From IMG/VR virus record IMGVR_UViG_3300027849_000014, positions 1-59,488 of that record: a stretch of 59,488 bases of DNA. The stretch is one strand, 5' to 3'. This document shows positions 3,972 to 15,859 of this stretch, piece by piece. Positions within the stretch are counted from its first letter, which is position 1. Each line of letters starts with the position of its first letter. Source of the DNA: a virus (taxonomy: Duplodnaviria; Caudoviricetes). The notes beneath the pieces were generated by a model, which saw nothing but the letters and a program-made list of their open reading frames with translations, had not been told where the DNA came from and did no database searches. A program made the translations under genes and the position numbers.

Positions 3972-5573
3972 CTATTTAGTTTCGTATGAGCGCGCCATTG
4001 TTACAATAGCGTTAGTTGAAAGAATAGTTACAGCAACAGACACAGCGTTTTCAAGTGCGGTCCTGGTTACCTTGAGGGGGTCTATAACTCCCATGTCTAT
4101 TAGGTTTCCATGCTTACAATTCTTTAAGTCATAACCCTCACCAGTAAGTGGTGGCTTCGGATATATAGAATCAAAATCTTTCCCTGAGTTCTCAATGATT
4201 TGTCTAGCTGGTGCCTGAAGTGCATACTTCATTATACTGGCAGCAATCTTTTCTTCAGCTGTCGGTGAACATGGTTCGCAGATTTCATATCCTAATCCAT
4301 ATAAAGTCATCCCACCTCCAGGAAGTATTCCCTCTTCCAAGGCAGAACGTACTGCACATACAGCATCATCTACCCTGTCGAACAACTCCTTCTGTTCAAG
4401 GTCTGTGTTACCACCAACATATATCACACCTATACCTCCAGTTAGCGAAGCTATACGTGACATGATAAAATCTTTTTCAAGTTTTGTTTTTGCAATATCA
4501 CATGAGGCCTTTAGTTGTTTAACTCTTTTATCTATATCCTCATGCTTATCAGAATCATCCTTCAGGATAACTGTTGAGCCACGACCAACTATCACCTTGG
4601 CAGCATGACCCAAATCCTCAGCGGTTATAATGCTAAGGTCATCCCCAGTTTTTTCTGAAAAATATGTAGCGCCCACAGTATAAGCAATGTCCTGCATCAG
4701 CTCGTGCTGCTTGTATCCAAAGTTAGGTGGAGCTATATTACATATCTTTAAATTGTTCTTCATCACATTAGCGGCTAATGTGTTTATTACATTCACAGAT
4801 GTTGGAGCTATGATAAGAAGCTTCTGGTTCTTCTGAATGATTGGCTTAAGTATATTCTCTATCTGAAGTATATTACTTATCTCCGCATCGGATACCATAA
4901 TATAAACATCCTCTAGTATACACTCATCTTTCCTTTGGTCATTAATAAACAGCGGTGATGAATATCCTCTGTCAACCTTTATACCTTCCGTAGTTTCATA
5001 GTAGGTAGAACTTGTTTGTGATTTCTCTACAGTAACCACACCGTCTTTACCAACCTGCTTATATACATTAGCTATCGTAGTACCAAGGTCCTTGTCATTG
5101 TTCGCTGATATAATAGCAACGTCCCTCATCTTCTTCTTTGACAATCTTTTAGATTCATCCTTAAGACCAAGCACTACCTCTTTCGTTAGCTCATTAATAT
5201 GACGCAGTACCTCTGTCCTGTTTACACCATCACCAATAAGTTCCGTACCCTTCTTAACCAAAGCTTCGGTTAATACTATAGCCGTTGTCGTTCCATCTCC
5301 AGCTGAGGTGGCAGTCTTGTCAGCAGCCTCCTTCATCATACGAACCGCTAGGTTCTCGACAGGGTCGATAAGGTTAATAGACCTAGCTACCGTCACGCCA
5401 TCTTTCGTAACAGTAATGCCTCCGATATGTTCTTCTGATTCTATTAGTACAGTATTACCTTGAGGACCAAGTGTGCTCTTAACTGCGTTTGATAATTTTG
5501 TAATTCCCGATATAAGTTTATCCCTACCGTCCTTACCGAAGCGAAGCTCCTTAGGTGAAAATCCTTGATTCAT
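3972..5573 (-). CDS. groEL: Chaperonin GroEL (Cpn60)
   Basis: STLGPQG, VTKDGVTVA, AGDGTTTA, EEGILPGGG and GVIDPLKV motifs; 533 aa; no GGM tail. Confidence 0.97.
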   Translation of the reverse strand: MNQGFSPKELRFGKDGRDKLISGITKLSNAVKSTLGPQGNTVLIESEEHIGGITVTKDGVTVARSINLIDPVENLAVRMMKEAADKTATSAGDGTTTAIVLTEALVKKGTELIGDGVNRTEVLRHINELTKEVVLGLKDESKRLSKKKMRDVAIISANNDKDLGTTIANVYKQVGKDGVVTVEKSQTSSTYYETTEGIKVDRGYSSPLFINDQRKDECILEDVYIMVSDAEISNILQIENILKPIIQKNQKLLIIAPTSVNVINTLAANVMKNNLKICNIAPPNFGYKQHELMQDIAYTVGATYFSEKTGDDLSIITAEDLGHAAKVIVGRGSTVILKDDSDKHEDIDKRVKQLKASCDIAKTKLEKDFIMSRIASLTGGIGVIYVGGNTDLEQKELFDRVDDAVCAVRSALEEGILPGGGMTLYGLGYEICEPCSPTAEEKIAASIMKYALQAPARQIIENSGKDFDSIYPKPPLTGEGYDLKNCKHGNLIDMGVIDPLKVTRTALENAVSVAVTILSTNAIVTMARSYETK

Positions 5574-5597
5574 AATTTAAGTGTATTTAATTTAATG

Positions 5598-5628
5598 CAA
5601 ATATAGTAAATAATTTTATCACACACAA
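5598..5628 (-). promoter_or_regulatory. groEL promoter TTG-N20-TATATTTG
   Basis: -7 box at 5598-5605 and TTG at 5626-5628 on the - strand. Confidence 0.7.
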
Positions 5629-5632
5629 TGTT

Positions 5633-5801
5633 GAGACTAGGTCTCCCTATATATATATATATAATTATATGTTTATTGCGTTAAAAATTTTTGACGTTTT
5701 GGTTTTCTTTTATAACATTCTTAACATTAGTACTGATAATCAAATAGTTAACTAAATAAACTCAACACAAACTCAACACAAACATAACATCGCCTTGACA
5801 C
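5633..5801. repeat. Origin-like module A: hairpin, (TA)n tract, palindrome and 11-bp iterons
   Basis: GAGAC-TAG-GTCTC 5633-45; TA tract 5648-70; CTGATAATCAA 5733-43; AAACTCAACAC x2 (5758-79) plus two degenerate units in the same 11-bp phase to 5801. Confidence 0.6.
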
Positions 5802-5809
5802 TATGGCAC

Positions 5810-5833
5810 AAAAAAAAGAGGGCACAACCCCTC
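5810..5833 (-). terminator. Intrinsic terminator
   Basis: GAGGG-GTTGTG-CCCTC followed by T8 on the - strand. Confidence 0.8.
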
Positions 5834-5879
5834 CTTCTTCTTAGGCTATGCCTAATCATCAAACACTACGCAATCATAG

Positions 5880-6056
5880 TTACTTAAATCTCTTCATTCT
5901 AGCGCTGGCCATTTCGTTACCCTCCGCTATCATGCTAACTTTATCCGCACGCTTTACTTCCTGTCGCAGTCTTGCAGCTTTACTTATTCCGCTTTCTAAT
6001 TCAGGAGCATTGTTTATTAATCTCCCGTTTGCAATTGTATAGTCACTGTACATCAT
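5880..6056 (-). CDS. Hypothetical protein (58 aa)
   Basis: Hand-translated MMYSDYTIANGRLINNAPELESGISKAARLRQEVKRADKVSMIAEGNEMASARMKRFK; variant promoter TATCTTTA at 6071-78 upstream and terminator downstream. Confidence 0.75.
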   Translation of the reverse strand: MMYSDYTIANGRLINNAPELESGISKAARLRQEVKRADKVSMIAEGNEMASARMKRFK

Positions 6057-6428
6057 ATCTGTTTTTTTTGTAAAGATACAAATTTTTTTAGATAGGCATA
6101 ACCAAAGGGTTCTATAGCACTCTACGTCAGCGAGGCCACAGCGGAAAGTGATTTTTTAAAAGCACCCCCCCTGATGATTTCAGGATTTTATCTCTGGTTT
6201 TTTTAGCTTTTTATCTGGAGCCCCTCCCCCATGGCTGCGCTCTAGCGCTGCACGTAAAGAACCCAGCCCGTACAAGCGCGCGCCTCCCTACGTTACACGT
6301 AATCCCTACCCCATACCCCCACATATCCCGTATCCTACCCAACAAAGACTCTCAGGTGCATAGAGATGCGCCTTAACCTCTGCGCTATCTGGTGGAGCTT
6401 AAACAAAGCATAGGGAACAATATGCCCG

Positions 6429-6690
6429 TAAGCCTCTGACTCTAAGCAATTTAACTGCGAAAGCACGCACTCTGACACAATTGTTATTTAGAATGAATAT
6501 AAACAACAAAAATAAGTATCTGAACCTCAGCTAGTTATAAGTTATTTTGCCTTAGGGCTTGTGTAGTACCCTTAAATAGACTATTTTTGAACCAGAGATA
6601 AACGCTCCTTGACATTTTGAGATATAACGCACTGATAATCAGACAGTTAGCTACTTTAAGCTACCTATCTCGCTGATAATCAGGTACTTA
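6429..6690. promoter_or_regulatory. Cluster of four 25-bp palindromic sites TAA-N4-CTGATAATCAG-N4-TTA (consensus)
   Basis: Copies at 6429-53, 6513-37, 6625-49 and 6666-90; further copies at 5726-50 and 15787-811. Confidence 0.75.
6592..6599 (+). promoter_or_regulatory. Probable early promoter -7 box TATTTTTG
   Basis: TAnnTTTG match upstream of the + strand early arm; no well-spaced -33 TTG seen. Confidence 0.55.
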
Positions 6691-6699
6691 TAGCGACCA

Positions 6700-6860
6700 G
6701 CACATGTGAACTCAAGTGCGCCCTATCCATCTAAGCAAAGCCTATCAACGAATAGGATGCCAAGCTAGAGAGCTGTAACAGGCTTTAGGAATAGGGTGAC
6801 GTGGGGTGCAGTGTGCGAGCATGGTGATGCCAGCCCGATAACCAAGGGGGGTATCACCGC
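6700..6860 (+). ncRNA. Unclassified structured leader RNA
   Basis: Nested helices 6700-05/6811-16, 6719-26/6791-98, 6737-43/6780-86 and 6763-66/6771-74, then 6823-31/6850-58; G-U pairs favour the + strand; GC-rich, no ORF. Confidence 0.6.
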
Positions 6861-6867
6861 AAAATAA

Positions 6868-6911
6868 CCAGCATCTGGATGACAGGCTAGTGAGAGCGAC
6901 ACTCATGCTGG
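6868..6911 (+). ncRNA. Mini-tRNA-like three-way junction 1
   Basis: CCAGCA [TCTG gatga CAGG] ctag [TGAG agcgaca CTCA] TGCTGG, then GGACTAAC. Confidence 0.65.
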
Positions 6912-6936
6912 GGACTAACTTTTAAATTAAATAACG

Positions 6937-7314
6937 ATGCAATTAACTACAAAACAAATGGAATGTAAAGATGAGTTTAGAATACTAGCTACAATGCTTA
7001 ATGACGCTGAGGTGAAGATAGATAAGCTTACCGAGGTTGGGACGTACATGGTGAAAGTAAGCACTAAGCATTTCGCCATGACGCTCAGGAAGAACGTAGC
7101 TGTATGCCCCCTGAACGTACTACAGCAAGGTGTTCGTACATGGAGCATGAGGCTAACAAACTCAAACGGCAGACAGGTAATGTACGCCTCAAGTATGCAC
7201 CCATCTGTATCCAGCCACATGGGAGACCTAATCTCAAAGCATGAGGATGCTAATGAGGTTGATTACAGGGCAGATGATTGGTCAGAGCTGGAGGCTTACG
7301 CTGGGCTTAAGTAG
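6937..7314 (+). CDS. Early hypothetical protein
   Basis: ORF track; first gene of the + arm with an A-rich start context. Confidence 0.75.
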   Translation: MQLTTKQMECKDEFRILATMLNDAEVKIDKLTEVGTYMVKVSTKHFAMTLRKNVAVCPLNVLQQGVRTWSMRLTNSNGRQVMYASSMHPSVSSHMGDLISKHEDANEVDYRADDWSELEAYAGLK

Positions 7315-7323
7315 ATTACCACC

Positions 7324-7366
7324 ACAGGGATTGGAACGATAGGGGTGTTCGACTCACCCCCCCTGT
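7324..7366 (+). ncRNA. Mini-tRNA-like three-way junction 2 (canonical T-loop)
   Basis: ACAGGG [ATTG gaa CGAT] a [GGGGTG ttcgact CACCCC] CCCTGT, then ACTAAC; 12-bp stacked acceptor plus T helix as in tRNA, with no anticodon arm. Confidence 0.75.
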
Positions 7367-7391
7367 ACTAACTTAATTAAATTCAATACCT

Positions 7392-7481
7392 ATGGCTTAC
7401 TTTCCTTTACTTATCCTAGCTCTTGTGATAATCACAGCAGCTTTACTTTTTAAAAACCAAATCAAAAATTTCTTAAAATAA
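7392..7481 (+). CDS. Small single-pass membrane peptide (29 aa)
   Basis: Hand-translated MAYFPLLILALVIITAALLFKNQIKNFLK. Confidence 0.6.
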   Translation: MAYFPLLILALVIITAALLFKNQIKNFLK

Positions 7482-7487
7482 ATCACT

Positions 7488-7565
7488 ATGAAAAAAACGC
7501 TAAAAAAACTCAACACAATCCTAATCGAATTTGCTAACGGTGCTGCATTTGCACTAAGAAATTAA
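7488..7565 (+). CDS. Micro-ORF (25 aa)
   Basis: MKKTLKKLNTILIEFANGAAFALRN; start context taaatcactATG shared with the next ORF. Confidence 0.55.
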   Translation: MKKTLKKLNTILIEFANGAAFALRN

Positions 7566-7570
7566 TCACT

Positions 7571-7723
7571 ATGACAAACCTAGAAAAACTAGCTCAGTAC
7601 TACTACAACGAAGACAATTTATCAACCATCAAATTTGACAAGCACGGCAGACCGTACATCCAGAACAACGGACGTATCATGCTCTCCAGAAGAACAGAGT
7701 ACAGCTACAGCTTTGCTCACTAA
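7571..7723 (+). CDS. Small hypothetical protein (50 aa)
   Basis: MTNLEKLAQYYYNEDNLSTIKFDKHGRPYIQNNGRIMLSRRTEYSYSFAH; packed between neighbours. Confidence 0.65.
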   Translation: MTNLEKLAQYYYNEDNLSTIKFDKHGRPYIQNNGRIMLSRRTEYSYSFAH

Positions 7724-7728
7724 AATCA

Positions 7729-7781
7729 GGTTAACTGATGATTGCTAATTGCATGAAAGCCCCGTACAGGGGCTATTAACC
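7729..7781 (+). ncRNA. Type I hammerhead ribozyme HH1 (predicted cleavage after A7775)
   Basis: GGTTAA-CTGATGA-t TGC taatt GCA t-GAAA-GCCCC gtaca GGGGC-TA-TTAACC: complete CUGANGA/GAAA/UH core with stems I-III; intergenic. Confidence 0.87.
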
Positions 7782-7798
7782 AAATAACAACTAGAATT

Positions 7799-8038
7799 AT
7801 GAGTATCAAATCAAACATTTTAACTGAAATCTCTAAGACATTTCAAACAATCGGCTGGGACACAGCAGAGGCAAAGGGAAAGCTTACCAACGACACGGGC
7901 ATGATACCAGCAGCATTTGAGAAGGAGATGACCATAGAGTACATGAAGGCTAACAACGTACTGTACACGCTTGAGTCTATTGAAAACGATGTAAAAAAGA
8001 TAAAAATGCTAATAGAATTACTAAACGATAACAACTAG
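7799..8038 (+). CDS. Early hypothetical protein
   Basis: ORF track. Confidence 0.7.
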   Translation: MSIKSNILTEISKTFQTIGWDTAEAKGKLTNDTGMIPAAFEKEMTIEYMKANNVLYTLESIENDVKKIKMLIELLNDNN

Positions 8039-8042
8039 AGCT

Positions 8043-8255
8043 ATGAAAAGTTTAAACAACATCAAAGAGACGTTTGCTAAAGGAAATCAAAACGGTAAGC
8101 TAGAGCTAGGTCGCGTTACTTATTGGTTTAACCTTAATGAATTGAGAATTAATCAAGACCTTGATGGGTTTGCATCTAATAGAGCACCGCTATACTATGA
8201 TAATGAGGCTAAATTCTATGCGGCTGTAAAGAGAGTATTAAACAAACAAAACTAA
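8043..8255 (+). CDS. Early hypothetical protein
   Basis: ORF track. Confidence 0.7.
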   Translation: MKSLNNIKETFAKGNQNGKLELGRVTYWFNLNELRINQDLDGFASNRAPLYYDNEAKFYAAVKRVLNKQN

Positions 8256-8258
8256 ACT

Positions 8259-8498
8259 ATGACAATGTACAAAGTAGTAACAATAGACCAATTTGGTCTT
8301 AACGTAACACAGGAAGATGGGTTTAAAAACTCATCAGATGCACAGGAAGAGGCTAATGATTGCATCGAAAGATGGGGAGAACAATTTGGTCAGGATTTTT
8401 GGGTAGAGCCTTACGAACCAGAGCCATACAAGAAGCCAAGGGGATACAACAATAACGCAGTCGATGGCTGGGAAGACATTTATCAATTAGAAGAGTAA
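8259..8498 (+). CDS. Early acidic hypothetical protein
   Basis: ORF track; very D/E-rich. Confidence 0.7.
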   Translation: MTMYKVVTIDQFGLNVTQEDGFKNSSDAQEEANDCIERWGEQFGQDFWVEPYEPEPYKKPRGYNNNAVDGWEDIYQLEE

Positions 8499-8499
8499 C

Positions 8500-8583
8500 A
8501 CTACTCACCACTCTAGTGCAGTCAAAATAATGGTGTCCAACCTGACACTCAATCACTTGAGGTACGAAGGAAGTAAGAGTAGT
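8500..8583 (+). ncRNA. Unclassified multi-stem RNA element
   Basis: Closing helix ACTACTC(8500-06)/GAGTAGT(8577-83) encloses CTCAA-tcac-TTGAG and either GTGTC/GACAC or GTCA/TGAC helices; intergenic. Confidence 0.45.
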
Positions 8584-8587
8584 AATC

Positions 8588-8632
8588 ACAGGCGCTGTTG
8601 ACAGCCTTGAGCAGAGCAATACTGCTGCCTGT
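8588..8632 (+). ncRNA. Mini-tRNA-like three-way junction 3
   Basis: ACAGGC [GCTG ttga CAGC] cttg [AGCAG agcaata CTGCT] GCCTGT, then ATCTAAC; all helices Watson-Crick. Confidence 0.7.
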
Positions 8633-8653
8633 ATCTAACCAACACGATTAATT

Positions 8654-8893
8654 ATGAAATTAAAATTTAAAGTATGTGACCTAACGGGAGCAGTAGAGTC
8701 ATCTGGAATTATTGGAGATAACAACTACAATGTAGCACTACATGATGCCTCATTTTTTGGCAGCAACACTTTCATTGATAGGGGGTATAAGTATACTGTT
8801 TTCCAAAATGGATTTAAAACCAAGGAGAGTACTAAGTATCACGACCTAAGTGAATTAATGAACAAAGATATATCATTTTATATAAAATTTTAA
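8654..8893 (+). CDS. Early hypothetical protein
   Basis: ORF track. Confidence 0.7.
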   Translation: MKLKFKVCDLTGAVESSGIIGDNNYNVALHDASFFGSNTFIDRGYKYTVFQNGFKTKESTKYHDLSELMNKDISFYIKF

Positions 8894-8895
8894 CT

Positions 8896-9033
8896 ATGAA
8901 AGCACAAAACAACAGCGATGCTTACCTGAAGCTGCTACTAGACGAAGGTAGGATATCATTTAAAAATTATTTTTTTAGACAGGGCGCAGAGAAGCTGGGC
9001 ATTAAAACTTATGAATTAATTAACAACAGATAA
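8896..9033 (+). CDS. Small hypothetical protein (45 aa)
   Basis: Hand-translated MKAQNNSDAYLKLLLDEGRISFKNYFFRQGAEKLGIKTYELINNR; fills the gap. Confidence 0.65.
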   Translation: MKAQNNSDAYLKLLLDEGRISFKNYFFRQGAEKLGIKTYELINNR

Positions 9034-9037
9034 AACT

Positions 9038-9355
9038 ATGAAAACTAAAATCAAATTGAAAGAAGGATACGGACAGGGCTTTATGCCACTAGGCGCATCA
9101 TACAAAAACTACACAATGCTGGTAGCAATCGCTAACTACTCTGAAAACGGGGTGTGTTACAATGACGCAATGGAGATGCTGGACGAAGACACCAGCATAG
9201 AAAAGTACCACTCCAAAATTAGGCTTCTGGAGGGGCTAGGAGGCTTCATGAGGGCTGTATGCACAGAAGACTTTGCCTTGGCATGGAACAGGGCAGATGG
9301 CAGCAACAGAGACGCTCTTCTGGAGGCTTTAAAAAATAATGAGATAGAGCTATAA
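9038..9355 (+). CDS. Early hypothetical protein
   Basis: ORF track; C-terminal GGFMRAV...AWNRAD..N motif. Confidence 0.75.
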   Translation: MKTKIKLKEGYGQGFMPLGASYKNYTMLVAIANYSENGVCYNDAMEMLDEDTSIEKYHSKIRLLEGLGGFMRAVCTEDFALAWNRADGSNRDALLEALKNNEIEL

Positions 9356-9356
9356 A

Positions 9357-9409
9357 GGTTAACTGATGATTGCTAATTGCATGAAAGCCTCCTCTGGAGG
9401 CTATTAATC
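9357..9409 (+). ncRNA. Type I hammerhead ribozyme HH2 (predicted cleavage after A9403)
   Basis: GGTTAA-CTGATGA-t TGC taatt GCA t-GAAA-GCCTCC tct GGAGGC-TA-TTAATC; compensatory C-G to T-A change in stem III and G-C to G-U in stem I relative to HH1. Confidence 0.87.
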
Positions 9410-9421
9410 AAATCAAATACT

Positions 9422-9904
9422 ATGAAGACTACAATCAAATTATCAAACAAGATGGAAAGATACCAAGCAAGAAATGGGTATCACGTACAGGTTAATCTAA
9501 ACTACACCGCTACGGTCAGAAACCTTAGGGAGTTTGTTGAGTACATCAACAGCCCAGAGTCAGACCTTGACCTAGAGTTTTTTGGGAACATACTAAGCTA
9601 CGACAGTACAGTAGATGATGAGTTTAAGCACGGGCTTAACACAATCATAGCTGAGGTGAAGGGCTTTGCAGTGTTTAACGCACAGTTTAAGCACACTTAC
9701 ATCGAGTGTAAGGAAGAGAAGGAGACCATCAGCATAAAGACCAGCAACGGTAAGCTAATCACCTTCAGCGTGATGTACAATCAGTGCGTAGATGTAAAGT
9801 ACCACAACGGTCAGGATGATTTCAAAATAATTGGGTTTCATGGGGGGCAGACTCCTGTGCCACACACAGCCGTAACACTACAAACAATCTTATTAAACAA
9901 CTAG
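9422..9904 (+). CDS. Early hypothetical protein (start revised from 9377 to ATG 9422)
   Basis: The track start (TTG 9377) lies inside HH2; ATG 9422 has the usual aatactATG context. Confidence 0.7.
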   Translation: MKTTIKLSNKMERYQARNGYHVQVNLNYTATVRNLREFVEYINSPESDLDLEFFGNILSYDSTVDDEFKHGLNTIIAEVKGFAVFNAQFKHTYIECKEEKETISIKTSNGKLITFSVMYNQCVDVKYHNGQDDFKIIGFHGGQTPVPHTAVTLQTILLNN

Positions 9905-9908
9905 AATT

Positions 9909-10427
9909 ATGGAAAGAACTTTAAAATTTAAGACAGACAAAGCAACAGATTGGTACATCACCAAAGAGTTTGCAGACGACAAACACATGCGTAATTTTAT
10001 TGCGTATGTGTGCAGAACAAAGAAGGGATACACCCTTGACGAAGTATTTATTAATCAAACAGAGTATAAAACTTGTGACAGGTGTTGTTATGATATCGTA
10101 GATAATGACGGCGATATTATGGAACACGTTTGCACTGATGAAATTGAATTAAATTCAAGAGAGGACAACAAACTAATTGCAGAATTTATGGGTATGAAAT
10201 ATTCAGATGAAAAAAGTTTCAATAATGGAGAATGGACACATTCAATTAAATCATTGAGTAAATTTGAAACCTCTTGGGATTGGCTGATGCCTGTATGTCA
10301 ACAAATTGACAAATACCTAGAGGATAATATATCGCTGATAGGATACTTTGATGATTGCTTAAGGTCTAATGATATAGACGTAAGGTATCAAGCTGTAGTA
10401 GAATTTATTAATCAATTAGACAACTAA
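9909..10427 (+). CDS. Composite hypothetical protein with CxxC...HxC motif and C-terminal SWDWLMPV domain
   Basis: ORF track; C-terminal half is paralogous to the next gene. Confidence 0.75.
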   Translation: MERTLKFKTDKATDWYITKEFADDKHMRNFIAYVCRTKKGYTLDEVFINQTEYKTCDRCCYDIVDNDGDIMEHVCTDEIELNSREDNKLIAEFMGMKYSDEKSFNNGEWTHSIKSLSKFETSWDWLMPVCQQIDKYLEDNISLIGYFDDCLRSNDIDVRYQAVVEFINQLDN

Positions 10428-10431
10428 AATT

Positions 10432-10731
10432 ATGAAAGACAATAAACTAATAGCAGAATTTATGGGGCTATCAATCAAAGAGGGGGTATGTTACTATACT
10501 GACGCAGATGATATGTTCCCTATGGGTGTCGAGGTTGAAGAACCGCACCTACCCTACGACACCTCTTGGGATTGGCTTATGCCTGTGGTTGAGAAAATAT
10601 CAGATGCAAAATCATGGAGCATAAACGCAACATTAGAATGGTTAAGTGAAAGCCAAGATAGGGATGGTTTTTATGATAGGGATGGCATCTTCCAATCAGT
10701 AGTAGAATTTATTAATCAATTAAACAGATAG
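10432..10731 (+). CDS. Hypothetical protein, SWDWLMPV domain
   Basis: Shares DNKLIAEFMG, TSWDWLMPV and VVEFINQL with the upstream gene. Confidence 0.78.
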   Translation: MKDNKLIAEFMGLSIKEGVCYYTDADDMFPMGVEVEEPHLPYDTSWDWLMPVVEKISDAKSWSINATLEWLSESQDRDGFYDRDGIFQSVVEFINQLNR

Positions 10732-10735
10732 AGTT

Positions 10736-10909
10736 ATGAAAGAAATTGTAATACAAGAGATAGTAAAAAGACTAGAAATAGTACAGGAAGATTTAGAAAT
10801 GTTACAAGACGGGAGCTGGGAGCCAGATGACGAGTCTTGTGAGGCAAGTTTGCATAACCTTAATTATGCTATAAAAGAATTATCTAACAGTTTAAATTTA
10901 AAAAAATAA
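10736..10909 (+). CDS. Small hypothetical protein (57 aa)
   Basis: Hand-translated MKEIVIQEIVKRLEIVQEDLEMLQDGSWEPDDESCEASLHNLNYAIKELSNSLNLKK. Confidence 0.7.
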   Translation: MKEIVIQEIVKRLEIVQEDLEMLQDGSWEPDDESCEASLHNLNYAIKELSNSLNLKK

Positions 10910-10913
10910 AATT

Positions 10914-11993
10914 ATGAGCATCAAACACATCACACCGCTAGATTACAGATACATGGAAAACATTAGCTGGGAGAAAAAAGTATCATACGCAGAGGTAACC
11001 TTTACTGTGAGTACAGGGGCTATTGAGCAAACCATTAAAGCCAATGTAGACACCAACGGGAAAGGGCTTTACGAGGCGCTAGTAGACCAAAGAATAATTG
11101 CTGAGTCAGACCATGTAAGAAAGGAGATTAACAGCATGGTTAAGCGCAATGTTGACAAGTACTGCGAAAGAAAGATAAGGGTATACAAAAGCGGAGTAAG
11201 GATACACAACGAGCTTGTAGACCTTGTAGTAAAGGATAAAAGAACAACTGTCTGGGAGCCTGAGAAAAACAACGGGGCTGTGAAGCCTGAAGAGTTGGTT
11301 GTAAGAGACCGCGTAAGTAACCTAAGCAATGAGGAGTTTTCTGGTAGATTATCTGATGACTCTTACCCCGTATACATTACTGCTTGGGCACACCCATCAA
11401 TTACCAAAGAGCCCTGTAAGTGTTCAATAAATTTCTGGATGAAGGATAAAGACGATGTTACAGACATACCTTACAGCCTACCTGAGTTTACGTTAGGGCT
11501 CAGGTCTCTTGTCACGAATACTAATGACGGTGTGCTACGCAGAAAAGAACATATAATTGACCTTATATACTCTGATGACAGGGGTATGTACCACTCTTAC
11601 GTGATACAGGATACAGGCAGAAGGGTTAAGCTTAACACCTTCATAGCCATGGCTAGACAGTACAACAGAGAAAAGGAAGCCCTGATAAACAAGAGCTTGG
11701 TAGAGAATGTAAACTACAGAGAGGTGCTGGCTAAACTACAGGAGATGTACCCTGGGTTACCGATATCTAAGAAAGAGGTTTATCAGACCAGCTTTAACAG
11801 AGACTTCCATGGATACTGGGGCAGAAGAAGATACCTAAAGTGTATTGTTGTTGAGTTTCCTGACACGAGTCAGTTGTTTTACAACGAAGAGAAAGCATGC
11901 GAAGAGAAAGAGCTGGTAGTTTCAGGGATGCATGATGTTTCCCTTATGACACCTGAGCAAGCAGTAAAAAAATTAATTAATCAAAACAAATAG
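10914..11993 (+). CDS. Hypothetical protein (359 aa)
   Basis: Long ORF; no motif recognised. Confidence 0.8.
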   Translation: MSIKHITPLDYRYMENISWEKKVSYAEVTFTVSTGAIEQTIKANVDTNGKGLYEALVDQRIIAESDHVRKEINSMVKRNVDKYCERKIRVYKSGVRIHNELVDLVVKDKRTTVWEPEKNNGAVKPEELVVRDRVSNLSNEEFSGRLSDDSYPVYITAWAHPSITKEPCKCSINFWMKDKDDVTDIPYSLPEFTLGLRSLVTNTNDGVLRRKEHIIDLIYSDDRGMYHSYVIQDTGRRVKLNTFIAMARQYNREKEALINKSLVENVNYREVLAKLQEMYPGLPISKKEVYQTSFNRDFHGYWGRRRYLKCIVVEFPDTSQLFYNEEKACEEKELVVSGMHDVSLMTPEQAVKKLINQNK

Positions 11994-11996
11994 ACT

Positions 11997-12338
11997 ATGT
12001 TACACACAAGAAAATTTAACGGAAGAGAGTACACCATACAGAACGAGGGGTACAGCAACAGCAGAGGGTGGGGACACATCTCTAAGCTTTACATGAACGG
12101 CATGTACATGGGGCAAAGAAAAGTAAAGTACATCAACAGAACGTGGGAGTCCTACAGGTTTCGCTCATGCATGCAGATACTAATTCATGGCATGCTTGAG
12201 GACAGGATAGACATGCACCTTGCAGACTACAAGGAACAGAACGGCATCAAGAGATTAACAAAAAAACGTAGAGAGGAAGCCATGCAATTTGCAGACGACA
12301 GGATAGACGACTTAACAAATCTTTACAAATCAATATAA
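11997..12338 (+). CDS. Hypothetical protein (YINRTWESY motif)
   Basis: ORF track. Confidence 0.75.
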   Translation: MLHTRKFNGREYTIQNEGYSNSRGWGHISKLYMNGMYMGQRKVKYINRTWESYRFRSCMQILIHGMLEDRIDMHLADYKEQNGIKRLTKKRREEAMQFADDRIDDLTNLYKSI

Positions 12339-12350
12339 AAACAAACAGAT

Positions 12351-12785
12351 ATGAAACACGAAGTAATATGTTACGCAACAGGAGACGTTCTTTTTAAAAG
12401 CGTCTCCAGAAGAGAGTGCGGTCAATGGATAGACGACAACGACCTAGGCTTAGGCGATGTGTCAATAAAAGAAAAGCCTTTCACCTTTAAAGACCTAGTC
12501 TTTAAGAGCCACAAGGTATTCCCTAAGGCTTGGGCATCAAGGATGGAGTTCGACAACGGAACTTTTATATCTGTTGTTGGGGGACATGAGTTTCTTTACG
12601 GCAATGGGTTCTCAAGCTTTGAGGTTATGAGTACGGTGACAGATAGAAGGGGAGAGTTTGGCGGAGTAGATAGCTGGATGTCTGTAGAACAGATAACAAG
12701 AAGGATGAGATACCTTCAGGCGCTGCCTAAAACTATTGATACCAGAAAGAACGAAGGGGGATATCATATAATAACTAACAACTAA
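12351..12785 (+). CDS. Hypothetical protein
   Basis: ORF track; FDNG..ISVVGG...YG motif. Confidence 0.75.
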   Translation: MKHEVICYATGDVLFKSVSRRECGQWIDDNDLGLGDVSIKEKPFTFKDLVFKSHKVFPKAWASRMEFDNGTFISVVGGHEFLYGNGFSSFEVMSTVTDRRGEFGGVDSWMSVEQITRRMRYLQALPKTIDTRKNEGGYHIITNN

Positions 12786-12797
12786 ACACAAGAGACC

Positions 12798-12956
12798 ATG
12801 GTAAAAGACCAGCTATTTAAAGTAAAGCTTTCTAACTCTAAGGACAGTATCCTAGTCAGGACTAGGTACACCTTTGATTTACAGGAGGCAAGGAGATGGA
12901 AGACAGAGGCTCCATACGGTGAGATTATTAACGCTCAAAACAATAAGATACAATGA
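12798..12956 (+). CDS. Small hypothetical protein (52 aa)
   Basis: Hand-translated MVKDQLFKVKLSNSKDSILVRTRYTFDLQEARRWKTEAPYGEIINAQNNKIQ; ATGA overlap with the next ORF. Confidence 0.65.
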   Translation: MVKDQLFKVKLSNSKDSILVRTRYTFDLQEARRWKTEAPYGEIINAQNNKIQ

Positions 12957-13093
12957 AGATAAAACAGCACAAGGTGTTACCCTCAGGGGTACACTCGGTC
13001 ATAGACCAAGACAACGTAGTTCATATATTTACAGAGGAAGAGTTCAGGCAAATACATTGGTGGACAAGAGCCAAGATGTTCTTGGAGTTATGA
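12953..13093 (+). CDS. Small hypothetical protein (46 aa)
   Basis: Hand-translated MKIKQHKVLPSGVHSVIDQDNVVHIFTEEEFRQIHWWTRAKMFLEL. Confidence 0.65.
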   Translation: MKIKQHKVLPSGVHSVIDQDNVVHIFTEEEFRQIHWWTRAKMFLEL

Positions 13094-13111
13094 TAAATTA
13101 ATGTCAATTTG

Positions 13112-13142
13112 TTGTACTATTGATAAACATTCTGTAAATTTG
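13112..13142 (+). promoter_or_regulatory. Promoter TTG-N20-TAAATTTG for the recombination/replication operon
   Basis: Both Bacteroidota boxes at canonical spacing in an intergenic gap. Confidence 0.78.
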
Positions 13143-13178
13143 CAGTTCATTAAATACTAATAAATAAACTAAAATCAA

Positions 13179-13481
13179 ATGCACTATTCAATTTTTAAAG
13201 AGTACCAGTCTCAGGTATCTGAGCTGTATGATGTCAACCAAGACGAGATATTTACCAAGAGCAAGCGAAGAGATATAGTAGACGCAAGGCAGATGCTGTA
13301 CTATCTATGCTCCGAAAGACCTATGCGTGTTAGATATATAAAGCAGTACATGGCAGACCACGGGTATAGCGTAGGTCACTCTACAATTATACATGGAATA
13401 AAATTAATAAGACAAAGAGCTGAGCACGATGAAGACTTGATGTCTATAATTAAAACAATAAAATCATGTGTAATAATTTAG
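13179..13481 (+). CDS. DnaA C-terminal (domain IV)-like HTH protein
   Basis: SKRRDIVDARQMLYYLC...HSTIIHG resembles DnaA R....V..RQ.AMYL...DHTTVLH. Confidence 0.75.
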   Translation: MHYSIFKEYQSQVSELYDVNQDEIFTKSKRRDIVDARQMLYYLCSERPMRVRYIKQYMADHGYSVGHSTIIHGIKLIRQRAEHDEDLMSIIKTIKSCVII

Positions 13482-13870
13482 AGAATGTTTTTCAGGAGGC
13501 AGCGATTGACAGGATGTCTGTCAGTTTAGACGGATATGGATACGACTCATTGCTGTACCTCGGTTGTAAGATAACCAAAGACAAGGAGCTGGGTGATGTA
13601 GTGATACAGAACGTATCTCTTGGTGGAGATTATTATAAGAAAATATCTCACGAAGAGGAGAAGGTCTTCATTGATAAGGGCTGGAGATACGGGGTGTATA
13701 GCCTATGTGTAAATACTTATAAGGCAAAGCTCGACACGATTGAGCTAGGGATTAAGGATGAGATGAACACTAAGCAGAACCCTAAAAGAATTAAGCACCT
13801 AAAAAATCACAGAGAAAGATTATTAAAAAAGTATAATAAAATTAATTTAAAACTAAACAATTATGAGTAA
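13466..13870 (+). CDS. Hypothetical protein
   Basis: ORF track. Confidence 0.7.
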   Translation: MCNNLENVFQEAAIDRMSVSLDGYGYDSLLYLGCKITKDKELGDVVIQNVSLGGDYYKKISHEEEKVFIDKGWRYGVYSLCVNTYKAKLDTIELGIKDEMNTKQNPKRIKHLKNHRERLLKKYNKINLKLNNYE

Positions 13871-14492
13871 AGCAAAATCAGTTTTCGAGACATTGAACTC
13901 TATCAATGTAAATGACAAGGTAGAAAAGAAGAACAACCTAACGTACCTATCATGGGCGTGGGCGTGGGCAGAGGTAAAGAAGAACTACCCTACCGCAACG
14001 TACACTATCTATGAGGATGCAGACGGGATGTTCTACCACTCAGACATCAGGTCTGCATGGGTAAAAACAGGTGTAACTATCGAGGGTATAGAACATATTG
14101 AATACCTACCCGTGATGGACTTCAGAAACAATTCTATTCTTCTGGATAAGCTATCGTCTGTTGACGTAAACAAAACCATACAGCGTAGCTTAACAAAGGC
14201 TATCGCAAGACATGGGTTAGGACTTTATGTGTATGCTGGAGAGGACTTACCTAGCGGTGAGGCAAAGCAAACAACAGGCAGACCAGCAGCTAAGAAGCCA
14301 GCTCAAACTAAGCCTTCTTTACAAACGACAGTGACGCACATAAACCTAGAGATAGGAGATGATAATTGGGATAGAGTTATGAAGTATGTAGTCGACAACA
14401 AAGACAAAGGTCTTAAGGTTATTGGAGAACAGCTGACTAAAAAATATAAAATGTCAACGATAGTTAAAAAAGAAATAGCAAAAGCAATATAG
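13863..14492 (+). CDS. Sak3/DUF1071-like single-strand annealing recombinase
   Basis: LTYLSWAWAW, LPVMDFRN and QRSLTKAIARHGLGLYVYAGEDLP motifs. Confidence 0.85.
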   Translation: MSKAKSVFETLNSINVNDKVEKKNNLTYLSWAWAWAEVKKNYPTATYTIYEDADGMFYHSDIRSAWVKTGVTIEGIEHIEYLPVMDFRNNSILLDKLSSVDVNKTIQRSLTKAIARHGLGLYVYAGEDLPSGEAKQTTGRPAAKKPAQTKPSLQTTVTHINLEIGDDNWDRVMKYVVDNKDKGLKVIGEQLTKKYKMSTIVKKEIAKAI

Positions 14493-14494
14493 AT

Positions 14495-15226
14495 ATGAAA
14501 GACATCATCAAACAATTACAAGACGACAAGGAGTACTACACAGGGGTTGGAAGAAATTATCTTTCCAACTCAGACATAGGAGACCTGATTAAAAATCCTA
14601 AGAACTTTAGGAAACCAAGAGAGGACAACAAAAACTTTCTTGTAGGCAGATACTTTCACCAGCTAATACTGGAACCAGAGAAGGCGGCAGCCACACCACA
14701 CGTAGACTTAGCCTCCAGGAACAGCAAGGCTTACAAAGAATTCATTGCTGAAAACAATCTAGAGATAGCCCTGCTTACAAAGGAGAAGCTAATGATGGAA
14801 GACCTAGTTGAAAGTATGCTCAATGTGAAGGACATCAGGGCTTTGATACAGGAAGAAGGTGTTCAGTATGAGGTGCCTATGATAAAAGAAATACATGGTG
14901 AAATGTGGAAGGGCAAGGCAGATATTGTAGGCTCAGAATATATTTTTGATATCAAAACAACAGGCGCTATAGATAAGTTTAAGTGGAGTGTTCGTGATTA
15001 TAATTACGACAGCCAAGCTTATATATATCAACAGCTTTTTGGAAAGCCCCTTGTGTTTTTAGTTGTGGACAAGACAACTAAGATGATAGGCATGTACTCT
15101 GTAAGTGACGAGAGCTTAGAACGTGGTGAGCAGAAGGTTGCCAAGGCTGTTGCGCAGTACAGAAAATTCTATGGTGATATGCCAGAGGAAGATATAAACC
15201 AATTCTATTTTTATGATGAGGTTTAA
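14495..15226 (+). CDS. PD-(D/E)XK exonuclease (RecE/DUF3799-like)
   Basis: LSNS, GRYFH..ILEP, KGKAD, DIKTT and Y..QAYIY motifs; adjacent to the annealase. Confidence 0.82.
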   Translation: MKDIIKQLQDDKEYYTGVGRNYLSNSDIGDLIKNPKNFRKPREDNKNFLVGRYFHQLILEPEKAAATPHVDLASRNSKAYKEFIAENNLEIALLTKEKLMMEDLVESMLNVKDIRALIQEEGVQYEVPMIKEIHGEMWKGKADIVGSEYIFDIKTTGAIDKFKWSVRDYNYDSQAYIYQQLFGKPLVFLVVDKTTKMIGMYSVSDESLERGEQKVAKAVAQYRKFYGDMPEEDINQFYFYDEV

Positions 15227-15383
15227 AGAGATGCTCCTTAAAAAGTACAAGGAGATATACAGAAGTAAGGATGTGATATGGCTTGAAGTTCCGATGAGCT
15301 GTGTCACACGAAAGGCTAAGGATAATATTATCATAGCCACAATAGAAACATTGGAGCAGAAAATAAATATTTTAAACCATTAA
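15213..15383 (+). CDS. Small hypothetical protein (56 aa)
   Basis: Hand-translated MMRFKEMLLKKYKEIYRSKDVIWLEVPMSCVTRKAKDNIIIATIETLEQKINILNH. Confidence 0.6.
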   Translation: MMRFKEMLLKKYKEIYRSKDVIWLEVPMSCVTRKAKDNIIIATIETLEQKINILNH

Positions 15384-15385
15384 TT

Positions 15386-15658
15386 ATGGCAGTAAACACA
15401 GATGAAATTGTATTCGCAGACGGTTTCAAATTCAGAAAGAAACATCCTAATCAAAAAGATTTTGTACTAGGAAGTTTAAGTATCAAGGTTGATGACGCAA
15501 TCACATTTTTAAAAGCCAACTCAAAAAACGGTTGGGTAAATGTAGGTATCAAGGAAAGTAAGGCAGGAAATCCTTACATGTTTGTTGACAACTTTGAACC
15601 AAAGCAAACAGAGGCGGTAACCAAAACTCATTTAGATGAGAGTGACGTACCCTTCTAA
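15386..15658 (+). CDS. Putative single-stranded DNA-binding protein
   Basis: Small beta-rich protein with an acidic C-terminal tail ending DVPF; recombination context. Confidence 0.65.
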   Translation: MAVNTDEIVFADGFKFRKKHPNQKDFVLGSLSIKVDDAITFLKANSKNGWVNVGIKESKAGNPYMFVDNFEPKQTEAVTKTHLDESDVPF

Positions 15659-15664
15659 AAATAA

Positions 15665-15686
15665 TGGGGTGTGTAACAGCGCCCCA
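15665..15686 (+). terminator. GC-rich hairpin after the SSB-like gene (possible terminator)
   Basis: TGGGGTGT-gtaaca-GCGCCCCA; weak U-tract. Confidence 0.45.
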
Positions 15687-15749
15687 AAATTTTTGTGCTA
15701 ATATATTTTACCATATAGGGTTTATTATTCAATGCTTTTATTTATTTTT

Positions 15750-15843
15750 ATTCCCTATACGAGACCAGAAAGATAACATTATCGACACAGACACTGATAA
15801 TCAGTTACTTAAGCAACACAAACTCGACACAAACTCGACACAA
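15750..15843. repeat. Origin-like module B upstream of the primase-helicase
   Basis: ATAACATT (15773), CTGATAATCAG (15794-804), AAACTCGACAC x2 (15820-41); same spacing as module A. Confidence 0.65.
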
Positions 15844-15859
15844 TTAAATCAAACACAGC

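What the first reader, a model, noticed from the sequence alone, without database searches (positions are those of the whole stretch)
6868..8632. Family of three anticodon-less mini-tRNA-like elements with conserved fold but divergent sequence
Seen: 6868-6911, 7324-7366 and 8588-8632 all read 6-bp outer stem, abutting 4-bp hairpin, 1-4 nt linker, 4-6 bp hairpin with a 7-nt loop closed by G-C (TTCGACT, AGCGACA, AGCAATA; shared nnCRAnn), then the outer stem with no spacer and a CTAAC trailer within 1-3 nt. Stem sequences differ yet all pair, which is within-genome covariation. Copy 2 has a canonical T-loop and a GG in the D-like arm. There is no encoded CCA. Inference: tRNA elbow mimics acting as RNase P/Z sites, 5' stabilisers, or decoys for tRNA-targeting defence proteins.
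Basis: partly seen in the sequence, partly recalled or inferred. Interest (0 to 1): 0.85.

Follow-up and report, generated by a model that had tools for sequence, protein, structure and literature searches.

The report
Mini-tRNA-like cut sites in phage operon
Three 43-45-base RNA folds that look like a tRNA without its anticodon arm sit just upstream of early genes of an uncultured 59-kb phage, in the same kind of slot where this phage and its relatives carry self-cutting hammerhead ribozymes, so they most likely recruit host tRNA-processing enzymes to cut the long early transcript into pieces.

Summary
6868-6911, 7324-7366 and 8588-8632 (+ strand) each form a 6-bp outer stem, a 4-bp hairpin and a 4-6-bp hairpin with a 7-nt loop, followed by CTAAC. 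Each ends 21-25 nt before an ATG at the head of the rightward early operon.

Fold energy alone is not significant. Comparative evidence carries the case. Orthologues in related phage contigs keep every pair through compensatory changes. A structure-only scan finds such junctions mainly on the sense strand, and only there do they carry T-loop sequences. Outer stem plus T-like stem sum to 10-13 bp, mostly 11.

The new context is two type I hammerhead variants in the same operon (7729-7781, 9357-9409). Relatives carry up to seven hammerheads in equivalent slots, and one related contig has a hammerhead where the window has copy 2.

Best reading (about 0.55): tRNA-like punctuation signals cut by host RNase P and/or RNase Z, analogous to plant mitochondrial t-elements. 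No RNA-end data support this yet.

There was no Rfam or ARAGORN match, and my searches found no report of the element. I rate it a new variant of a known kind.

The parts
6868..6911 (+). tRNA-like element w1. It has an acceptor-like 6-bp stem, a D-like 4-bp hairpin and a T-like 4-bp hairpin with loop AGCGACA. It lies in the leader, 25 nt before the first early ATG (6937).
   Evidence: Orthologues in 4 other contigs keep 70 of 70 pair cells, and 12 of 14 pairs show changes on both sides. In a pattern search that left the outer stem unspecified, 9 of 9 stretches had a paired outer stem.
6915..6919 (+). CTAAC trailer of w1.
   Evidence: CTAA lies within 10 nt of the stem in 13 of 21 family members, against 6 of 65 control hits.
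7324..7366 (+). tRNA-like element w2. The T-arm is canonical: a G-C closing pair and loop TTCGACT. It starts 10 nt after the stop of gene 6937-7314 and ends 25 nt before ATG 7392.
   Evidence: -17.2 kcal/mol, joint best in the window. In a related contig a hammerhead stands in this slot (run X1 record 2).
7368..7372 (+). CTAAC trailer of w2.
8588..8632 (+). tRNA-like element w3, with loop AGCAATA. It ends 21 nt before ATG 8654.
   Evidence: (the MFE equals the proposed junction). A model built only from w1-type copies finds it at E=0.003. An element of identical geometry in L004 (2686-2730, minus strand) has different outer-stem and T-like-stem sequences.
8635..8639 (+). CTAAC trailer of w3.
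7729..7781 (+). Type I hammerhead ribozyme variant HH-a. It has the CUGAUGA and GAAA core and three stems, with a U.U at pair 10.1-11.1. The predicted cut is between 7775 and 7776, 23 nt before ATG 7799.
   Evidence: The Rfam searches did not detect it.
9357..9409 (+). Type I hammerhead variant HH-b. Stem II is the same as in HH-a, and stem III differs from it by compensatory changes. The predicted cut is between 9403 and 9404, 18 nt before ATG 9422.
6632..6683 (.). Two copies of the palindrome CTGATAATCAG, about 190-240 nt upstream of w1. This is a candidate operator/promoter region for the rightward early transcript.
   Evidence: 8 matches at up to 1 mismatch, against 1.6 expected. A third exact copy lies at 15794, upstream of the primase gene. 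Its function is inferred.

Best explanation
The three elements are RNA signals on the sense strand of a polycistronic early transcript. Each folds into a minimal tRNA mimic. An acceptor-like stem stacks coaxially on a T-arm-like hairpin, a small D-like hairpin may pack against the T-like loop, and there is no anticodon arm.

Host tRNA-maturation endonucleases would recognise this shape. RNase P would cut at the 5' edge, and/or RNase Z (or another 3' endonuclease) would cut just after the discriminator-like base. That separates the leader and the upstream cistrons from the next open reading frame. The downstream mRNA is left with a short A/U-rich leader of about 21-25 nt that begins at or near CUAAC.

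The elements would do the same job as the hammerhead ribozymes in the neighbouring slots, by borrowing a host enzyme instead of self-cleaving.

Shown here: the fold, its conservation through compensatory change, its strand, its T-loop character, its position, and its interchange with hammerheads. Inferred: that it is cut, by which enzyme, and at which side.
For: 1. Genome context. The window is a whole, roughly 99% complete virus record. All three elements lie at the head of the rightward gene block, 21-25 nt before an ATG.

2. Hammerheads in the same operon. Two type I hammerheads lie in this operon, 18 and 23 nt before an ATG. Across 162 related regions (about 760 kb), 35 hammerheads were found on the sense strand in 18 regions and 0 on the antisense strand. 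Their cut sites lie 18-34 nt before an ATG in 30 of 32 distinct copies (one at 44 nt, one with none found). The close relative L004 has 7 hammerheads plus 2 tRNA-like elements.

3. Slot interchange.
- One contig of run X1 (library labelled RNA-Seq, RNA status only guessed) joins window 7324 directly to 7727-7782, so a hammerhead stands where w2 stands here.
- In L004 a tRNA-like element precedes the homologue (56% identity, E=5e-22) of the window gene 7571-7723.
- In L009 a tRNA-like element is followed by the trailer typical of hammerheads.

4. Covariation. Across w1 and 4 orthologues, 70 of 70 cells pair, and 12 of 14 pairs change on both sides. None of 500 shuffles reached this, and slid controls gave 26-39% paired. 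Those four orthologues were first found by scans that required pairing. In a pattern search that specified neither the outer stem nor the 3' strand of the T-like stem, all 9 of 9 stretches (4 distinct elements) had both helices paired.

5. Structure-only scan with no sequence constraint.
- At <=-12 kcal/mol: 27 distinct sense hits, 9 antisense and 5 shuffled. TTCRANY loops occurred in 10 of 27 sense hits (one of them part of a real tRNA), 0 of 9 antisense and 0 of 5 shuffled.
- At <=-9 kcal/mol: 17 TTCRANY and 6 AGCRANA loops among 52 sense hits, and 0 among 36 antisense hits.

6. Geometry (21 distinct family members).
- Outer stem 5-8 bp and T-like stem 4-7 bp. Their sum is 10 (3 members), 11 (12), 12 (4) or 13 (2).
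- Spearman -0.65 (p=0.0015) and sd 0.83, against sd 1.78 and sums of 9-18 in 65 control hits.
- An ATG lies 10-45 nt downstream in 19 of 21 members against 29 of 65 controls.
- G.U pairs make up 6% of pairs against 19% in controls.

7. Real tRNAs. Bona fide phage tRNA genes without an encoded CCA lie on the same strand of the same region in relatives. These phages therefore already rely on host 3' processing and CCA addition.

8. Precedent. tRNA-like t-elements direct RNase Z and RNase P cuts that make mRNA ends in plant mitochondria (PMC1920247, abstract and passages read). Hammerhead arrays flanking genes in prophages were proposed to cut long phage transcripts into gene-length mRNAs (PMC3088659, passages read).
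Against: - There are no RNA-end data. The only runs that held this sequence are assembled contigs, which cannot show ends. Contigs from the RNA-labelled libraries stop at 6884 and 8626, not at a predicted cut site.
- Fold energies of the single copies are not significant, and the reverse strands fold as well. w1 does not stand out on energy.
- w1 and w3 have A-G in place of the T-loop's first two bases. This departs from the canonical T-loop.
- The coaxial stack is mostly 11 bp, not the 12 bp of a tRNA.
- No CCA is encoded. The first trailer base is often C, which I recall (untested here) to disfavour RNase Z.
- The bases flanking the 5' edge show no clear RNase P preference (by eye).
- The length compensation is partly forced by the energy cut-off, which removes short-plus-short combinations.
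- The host, and hence its RNase Z status, is unknown.
Confidence: 0.55

Rival explanations
1. Structured RNA that is not cut. The fold would act as a 5' or 3' stability element, a translation or ribosome-loading enhancer for the leader that follows, a transcription attenuator or terminator, or a binding site or decoy for a tRNA-binding host or phage protein.
For: The conserved single-stranded trailer and the fixed distance to the ATG suggest a role tied to the downstream leader. Some copies are followed by a T-run (w1; L002, L004, L016 and L127 copies). No cleavage has been shown.
Against: Interchange with hammerheads, whose only known activity is cleavage, in the same slots. The T-loop enrichment and the stem-sum constraint point to enzymes that measure the acceptor/T stack. 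w3 and several relatives lack a T-run. There is no anticodon loop for anticodon nucleases to attack.
Confidence: 0.2
2. A new small self-cleaving ribozyme class built on a T-loop three-way junction, doing the same job as the neighbouring hammerheads without a host enzyme.
For: This genomic setting, next to hammerheads in phage operons, is the kind in which other small ribozyme classes were found (recalled; named in PMC5737381, passages read). About 10 invariant positions are shared by w1-type copies. A conserved single-stranded trailer adjoins a compact fold. Hammerhead products here begin UUAAC or UUAAU, which resembles CUAAC.
Against: The junction has no conserved unpaired nucleotides. The conserved loop is simply a T-loop in many members. 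The CTAAC trailer is absent from 8 of 21 family members. The stem-sum constraint fits protein or RNase P measurement of a tRNA shape. There was no match to any Rfam ribozyme.
Confidence: 0.08
3. A DNA-level element. It could be a structured promoter for a phage-borne RNA polymerase, as with coliphage N4's hairpin promoters. Or it could be a recombination joint that shuffles gene cassettes.
For: Three copies sit at the head of the early region. Cassette boundaries in relatives fall next to the elements: joints at 7324, 7382 and 8647. In the crAss-like phage phi14:2, early transcripts lack any common upstream sequence motif (bioRxiv 10.1101/2020.03.07.982082, passages read).
Against: No virion RNA polymerase could be identified. 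The 3448-aa ORF has no Pfam, PHROG or PDB sequence match, no D-x-D-x-D motif and no similarity to the C-terminal 1577 residues of phi14:2 gp66. The T-loop motif is strand-specific and meaningless for DNA. G.U pairs occur on the sense strand. Hammerheads show that the region is read through as one RNA. No recombinase was seen among the 35 of 49 ORFs of 100 aa or more scanned in at least one library. A secondary role as microhomology for cassette exchange is not excluded.
Confidence: 0.06
4. Chance hairpins or decaying tRNA-gene remnants with no function.
For: Single-copy fold statistics are weak. Loose descriptors give several hits per shuffled window.
Against: Compensatory changes among orthologues. 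Sense-strand and T-loop enrichment. The position before ATGs and the shared trailer across phages whose stems are unrelated in sequence.
Confidence: 0.03

Closest known systems
t-elements of plant mitochondria (tRNA-like processing signals; Forner et al. 2007, PMC1920247, abstract and passages read)
   Same: These are non-canonical tRNA-like folds with a conserved T-arm, embedded in mRNA precursors. mRNA 5' ends are made by RNase Z just downstream of them and 3' ends by RNase P just upstream. No sequence motif is conserved beyond the T-arm.
   Different: t-elements are about 70 nt and cloverleaf-like. They occur in organelles and their ends have been mapped experimentally. The phage elements are 43-45 nt and have no anticodon arm. 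Half of the well-supported copies carry a non-canonical AGCRANA loop, and most carry a conserved CTAAC-type trailer. Their cleavage is untested.
Hammerhead ribozyme arrays flanking genes in prophages (Perreault et al. 2011, PMC3088659, passages read)
   Same: Same position (intergenic, in phage operons) and same presumed outcome (gene-length mRNAs). Here both kinds occur in one operon and swap slots between relatives.
   Different: The three elements lack the CUGAUGA/GAAA core and any conserved junction. They would need a host enzyme to be cut.
Viral and cellular tRNA-like 3'-end or release signals (MALAT1 mascRNA; murine gammaherpesvirus 68 tRNA-miRNA units).
   Same: A tRNA-like fold is used only to recruit RNase P or RNase Z so that a neighbouring RNA is released.
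   Different: Those are eukaryotic and near full cloverleaf size. They are not arrayed between protein-coding cistrons.
tRNA-like domain of tmRNA
   Same: An acceptor stem plus T-arm plus a reduced D region without an anticodon arm. A phage example turned up in phi14:2.
   Different: tmRNA has about 300 nt inserted between the two halves, ends in CCA and is charged with alanine. The elements here are contiguous, lack CCA, and ARAGORN reports no tmRNA in the window.
Hairpin promoters of coliphage N4 virion RNA polymerase. Recalled; PMC4496689 was seen only in a search listing.
   Same: Three structured elements with divergent sequence at the start of an early region.
   Different: As recalled, N4 promoters are single 5-7-bp hairpins with 3-nt loops on the template strand. 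Here there are three-way junctions with a strand-specific T-loop on the sense strand, and no virion polymerase was identified.

Membership tests
Canonical tRNA | Cloverleaf with an anticodon arm, detected by tRNA finders | tested here: not met
   ARAGORN found 0 genes in the window. There was no Rfam tRNA match even at E<=10. None of the related elements was called in the 99 loci scanned, whereas real tRNAs in L003, L012, L077, L080, L082 and L095 were.
Canonical tRNA | T-arm with a G53-C61 closing pair and loop T-T-C-R-A-N-Y | tested here: met
   Met in full by w2 (TTCGACT). w1 and w3 keep G53-C61, C56, R57 and A58 but have A-G at loop positions 1-2.
Canonical tRNA | 7-bp acceptor plus 5-bp T stem (12-bp stack), and a 3' CCA either encoded or added | tested here: inconclusive
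   The stacks are 10, 12 and 11 bp in w1, w2 and w3. Across 21 family members the sum is 10-13 with a mode of 11. No CCA is encoded, and whether one is added cannot be tested here.
tRNA-like processing signal (t-element type) | Acceptor-like stem coaxial with a T-arm-like hairpin inside an mRNA precursor | tested here: met
   The elements are on the sense strand and intergenic within an operon that also holds hammerheads.
tRNA-like processing signal (t-element type) | RNA ends coincide with the element's edges, and RNase P/Z cut it | not testable with these tools
   Only assembled contigs of public runs were available. Contigs cannot show ends.
Hammerhead ribozyme | Core CUGAUGA ... GAAA ... 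with three stems and a cleavage-site triplet | tested here: not met
   The core is absent from w1-w3. It is present in two neighbouring elements, 7729-7781 and 9357-9409. The closest Rfam model for a relative's copy is RAGATH-1-hammerhead at 26 bits, against a gathering score of 56.3.
Any Rfam 15 family | Score at or above the gathering threshold | tested here: not met
   0 matches in the window and 0 in 10 related loci.
N4-type hairpin promoter | Single short hairpin with a 3-nt loop upstream of early start sites, plus a virion RNA polymerase gene | tested here: not met
   The elements are three-way junctions with a 7-nt loop. No polymerase was recognisable. The promoter definition is recalled.
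tmRNA | tRNA-like domain split by a tag reading frame and pseudoknots, with a CCA end | tested here: not met
   ARAGORN and Rfam report none in the window.

The most novel reading that the evidence does not exclude
The 43-45-nt junction is a new class of small self-cleaving ribozyme built on a T-loop scaffold. It would cut within or next to its conserved CUAAC trailer. Phages would swap it freely with hammerheads as an alternative 'scissor cassette' between early genes.
Probability: 0.08. Interest if true: 0.9.

Novelty: new variant of a known kind. Interest (0 to 1): 0.68.

Why it matters
What hammerhead ribozymes do in bacteria and phages is still unsettled. The 2011 survey could only suggest that arrays of them cut long phage transcripts into gene-sized mRNAs (PMC3088659).

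Here a second, unrelated device sits in the same slots and swaps with hammerheads between close relatives. It is a minimal tRNA mimic that would borrow host RNase P or Z. That argues the cut itself is the selected function. It also gives a direct test: replace one device by the other and follow RNA ends and expression.

It would also be the smallest natural tRNA mimic proposed as a processing signal, and a bacterial-virus counterpart of organellar tRNA punctuation. As a compact 45-nt part it could be useful for polycistronic expression in Bacteroidota.

Elements conserved in shape but not in sequence escape motif searches. That may explain why early-region signals were missed in related phages.

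Tried and rejected
- **Rfam and ARAGORN.** Neither gave anything for the elements.
- **Covariance model R1.** It was built from five w1-type copies. With default filters it recovered only its own seeds in 911 kb. With filters off it also found w3 and its L004 counterpart, but not w2 or the two MW202828.1 copies. I therefore used my own descriptors with antisense and shuffled controls. MAFFT alignments of mixed geometries (A1, A2) were not structurally consistent and were not used for counting.
- **Public reads.** Only assembled contigs held the stretch. A run labelled RNA-Seq (RNA status only guessed) and a metatranscriptome held 0.11 and 0.09 of its sampled words. Their contig ends (6884, 8626) say nothing about RNA ends. 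Parts of the stretch without cover are not evidence.
- **Related loci from early genes.** A search with the first early gene found none, and with the 359-aa gene only one. The early genes are too mosaic, so GroEL and primase were used as anchors.
- **Nucleotide search.** blastn of 5500-9500 against GenBank phages found no match.
- **Virion RNA polymerase idea.** It was rejected for lack of any polymerase signature in the 3448-aa ORF.
- **Pairing of CTAAC.** I looked for pairing with an upstream or loop sequence and found none (by eye).
- **phi14:2 and the elemo phage.** No tRNA-like junction or hammerhead of this kind appeared in the first 50 kb of phi14:2 (junction scan and a list of bare core-motif sites). 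None appeared in the first 30 kb of the cultured Flavobacterium phage elemoF.
- **RNA-processing genes.** Pfam on ten further window proteins showed none.
- **Literature.** Searches for an anticodon-less tRNA-like element in phage operons found no report. Supplements of the papers could not be seen. The primer-extension end points of phi14:2 lie in figures and tables I could not read.
Full report
**What the window is.** The window is a complete IMG/VR virus record of 59,488 bases, which CheckV rates at about 99% complete. It encodes:
- GroEL (3972-5573, minus strand);
- a primase/helicase (15860-18277) and a helicase;
- a Sak-type annealing protein and a PDDEXK protein;
- a portal, a large terminase and several virion proteins;
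- a protein whose N-terminus matches the crassvirus muzzle family.

A 3448-aa ORF (22965-33311, minus strand) matches nothing in Pfam, PHROGs or the PDB sequences. It has no D-x-D-x-D motif and no BLASTP similarity to the C-terminal 1577 residues of the phi14:2 virion polymerase. I therefore do not call it a polymerase.

The nearest GenBank record is an uncultured podovirus, MW202828.1, at 69.6% identity over 99% of the primase. Flavobacterium 'elemo' phages follow at 39.8% over 35%. A Bacteroidota host is likely but not shown.

Genes run rightward from 6937 to 22964. They are mostly 2-12 nt apart, apart from a few longer gaps.

**The observation.** All three elements are present as described. 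No tRNA finder or Rfam model reports them.

Thermodynamics alone do not carry the case.
- The z-scores are -0.7 to -2.0, and the opposite strands fold equally well.
- In a structure-only scan of the whole window, w2 and w3 are the two best junctions on either strand (-17.2 kcal/mol each). Shuffles gave 0-3 hits at <=-12.
- w1 (-11.6) is unremarkable on energy.

What sets the trio apart is that all three lie within 1.8 kb on one strand and end 25, 25 and 21 nt before an ATG. All three are followed by CTAAC.

**The neighbours: hammerheads.** Reading a close relative (L004, GroEL 87% identical) showed canonical type I hammerhead cores between its early genes. A descriptor then found two in the window itself, at 7729-7781 and 9357-9409.
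- Both carry CUGAUGA and GAAA and share the same stem II.
- Their stem III sequences differ from each other by compensatory changes.
- Both have a U.U mismatch at the first stem II pair, which is probably why Rfam missed them.

Across 162 related regions (about 760 kb between GroEL and primase), the descriptor found 35 hammerheads in 18 regions, all on the sense strand and none on the antisense strand. Of these, 32 are distinct, and the cut site lies 18-34 nt before an ATG in 30 of them (one at 44 nt, one with none found). L004 alone has seven, plus two tRNA-like elements. The only Rfam signal is a sub-threshold match of one L004 copy to RAGATH-1-hammerhead (26 bits, gathering score 56.3, E=0.11).

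Arrays of hammerheads flanking genes in prophages are in print. They were proposed to cut long phage transcripts into gene-length mRNAs (PMC3088659, passages read).

**The elements form a family.**
- MW202828.1 has two copies with unrelated stem sequences, the same design and the same trailer.
- Descriptor scans of the related loci found further copies. All are on the early-operon strand and mostly 21-38 nt before an ATG.
- For w1 and four orthologues, every one of 70 pair cells is a standard pair, and 12 of 14 pairs show changes on both sides. None of 500 shuffles reached this, and slid controls gave 26-39% paired.
- Those four orthologues were first found by scans that required pairing. I therefore also ran a pattern search that fixed only the D-like hairpin, the linker and the loop. 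All 9 of 9 stretches found (4 distinct elements) have a fully paired 8-bp outer stem and T-like stem, with different sequences.

**The elements are tRNA-like and on the RNA-sense strand.** A scan that imposed structure and energy only, with no sequence constraint, gave these results.
- At <=-12 kcal/mol there were 27 distinct sense hits, 9 antisense and 5 shuffled.
- Ten of the 27 sense hits carry a TTCRANY loop, where chance expects about 1 in 1000 per hit. One of the ten is part of a real tRNA-Leu. None of the 14 control hits carries such a loop.
- At <=-9 kcal/mol, 17 TTCRANY and 6 AGCRANA loops occur among 52 sense hits, and none among 36 antisense hits.

Among 21 distinct family members, after excluding two hits that ARAGORN assigns to real tRNAs:
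- the outer stem varies from 5 to 8 bp and the T-like stem from 4 to 7 bp;
- their sum is 10 (3 members), 11 (12), 12 (4) or 13 (2);
- Spearman is -0.65 (p=0.0015) and sd 0.83, against sd 1.78 and a range of 9-18 in 65 control hits.

Part of this compensation is forced by the energy cut-off, but the upper bound is not. It is the signature expected if the acceptor/T stack is measured, as RNase P, RNase Z and the CCA-adding enzyme do with tRNA. That property is established knowledge that I recall, not something tested here.

A few G.U pairs on the sense strand would be A.C mismatches on the other strand.

Some more distant members (L071, L081) carry an extra central hairpin. A subgroup (L116, L127, L155, L160) replaces the D-like hairpin by a G-rich connector. 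Real tRNA genes without an encoded CCA lie on the same strand of the same region in relatives.

**Interchange with hammerheads.**
- A 1343-nt contig of run X1 (library labelled RNA-Seq, RNA status only guessed) follows the window from 6577 to 7324. That is the first base of w2. It then continues directly with 7727-7782 (the hammerhead), then 40 other letters, then 7575-7666. This relative therefore has a hammerhead where the window has w2.
- In L004 a tRNA-like element precedes the homologue of the window's 50-aa gene 7571-7723 (56% identity). Its sequence most resembles w3.
- The homologue (by my reading) of the window gene 8259-8498, which has no element before it, is preceded by a hammerhead in L004.
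- In L009 a w1-type element is followed by the stem-I-like hexamer and the small GAAA-loop hairpin that normally follow hammerheads.
- Contigs of other runs lack 7383-7478 or 8648-8889. Cassette borders therefore lie just downstream of w2 and w3.

**Mechanism.** The most economical reading is that the early transcript starts upstream of w1. The palindromic pair at 6632-6683 is a candidate operator/promoter, and a metatranscriptome contig spans 6613-6884. The transcript would then be punctuated by two kinds of cutter: self-cleaving hammerheads and tRNA mimics that recruit host enzymes.

Type I hammerheads cut near their 3' side. They stay on the upstream fragment and leave a short unstructured leader. 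An RNase Z-type cut after the discriminator-like base would do the same for the tRNA-like elements, leaving leaders of 21-25 nt that begin at or near CUAAC. An RNase P cut at the 5' edge would instead leave the fold on the 5' end of the downstream mRNA. Both cuts together would release a roughly 45-nt RNA. I cannot tell which applies.

The trailer reads A-C-U-A in many copies, one base away from a tRNA's A-C-C-A. It could in principle still pair with the RNase P RNA loop that binds CCA. This is speculation.

Plant mitochondrial t-elements are the closest precedent (PMC1920247).

**Rivals.**
- An uncut structural or regulatory RNA remains possible (0.2).
- A new self-cleaving class is not excluded (0.08). 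It is disfavoured by the absence of a conserved junction, by the plain T-loop in many members, and by the trailer being absent in 8 of 21.
- A DNA-level promoter or recombination site (0.06) conflicts with the strand-specific T-loop and lacks a polymerase or recombinase. A side role as microhomology for cassette exchange is conceivable.
- Chance is effectively excluded by the comparative data.

**Novelty.** The library searches found no report of anticodon-less tRNA-like elements in phage operons, nor of their interchange with hammerheads. No Rfam family matches. The principle of tRNA-like folds acting as processing signals is known, so I rate this a new variant of a known kind. Supplements and figures of the papers were not visible to me.

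Noticed in passing
window 7729-7781 and 9357-9409 (+): Two type I hammerhead ribozyme variants sit between early genes. Both have a U.U at stem II pair 10.1-11.1, and their stem III sequences differ by compensatory changes. Rfam did not detect them.
   Followed up: yes
L165 (Cellulophaga phage phi14:2, NC_021806.1) 4031-4500 (+): ARAGORN calls a tmRNA here (tag peptide GSSVQKLAMVA). Rfam tmRNA scores 46 bits (gathering score 47, E=7.6e-16). It lies inside the g005-g006 intergenic region, which the 2020 preprint describes as a highly transcribed long non-coding RNA of unknown function. The record carries no such annotation.
   Followed up: partly
window 6632-6642, 6673-6683, 15794-15804 (and 5733-5743 with one mismatch): The palindrome CTGATAATCAG is repeated upstream of the early operon and upstream of the primase gene (8 matches against 1.6 expected). 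Similar sites occur in relatives. It is probably an operator for a phage regulator.
   Followed up: partly
window 8533-8548 and 17573-17586; L002 5745, 6541, 6810, 7144, 7596, 7886; relatives L016, L033, L047, L082, L112: Hairpins with a fixed GTGTC/GACAC stem and a variable loop (2 in the window against 0.13 expected). They lie directly upstream of tRNA-like elements in several relatives. In MW202828.1 a 16-bp perfect palindrome of this type stands before at least six early genes. The fixed stem sequence suggests a protein-binding site.
   Followed up: partly
window 5574-6867: This 1.3-kb ORF-poor stretch between GroEL and the early operon is conserved at 70-81% nucleotide identity in relatives. 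It holds one small conserved frame, 5848-6042 (+) or 5880-6056 (-), with 59-68% amino-acid identity in 5 relatives. A terminator-like hairpin with a T-run lies at 5819-5831 (-). A metatranscriptome contig covers 5842-5987 at the highest depth seen.
   Followed up: partly
window 22965-33311 (-): A 3448-aa ORF lies next to the virion genes. It has no Pfam, PHROG or PDB sequence match and no D-x-D-x-D motif. Its nature is open.
   Followed up: partly
L004 and other relatives, just after many hammerheads: A 3-bp hairpin with a GAAA loop follows the hammerhead's stem I. Its stem covaries (GTC/GAC against GGC/GCC). It lies about 15 nt before the ATG.
   Followed up: no
window 7383-7478 and 8648-8889: Contigs of related phages in public runs lack exactly these stretches: a 29-aa hydrophobic ORF and a 79-aa ORF. 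Single-gene cassettes therefore come and go next to the elements.
   Followed up: no
window about 13135-13142, in the 85-nt gap 13094-13178: TAAATTTG fits the Bacteroidota -7 promoter motif as I recall it. It is a possible host-type promoter for the next gene block.
   Followed up: no
L002 (MW202828.1) 4720-4810 and 4980-5200: Five copies of an ATCGACATA-type iteron and a long CG/CA-rich low-complexity tract lie in the region that corresponds to the window's ORF-poor stretch.
   Followed up: no
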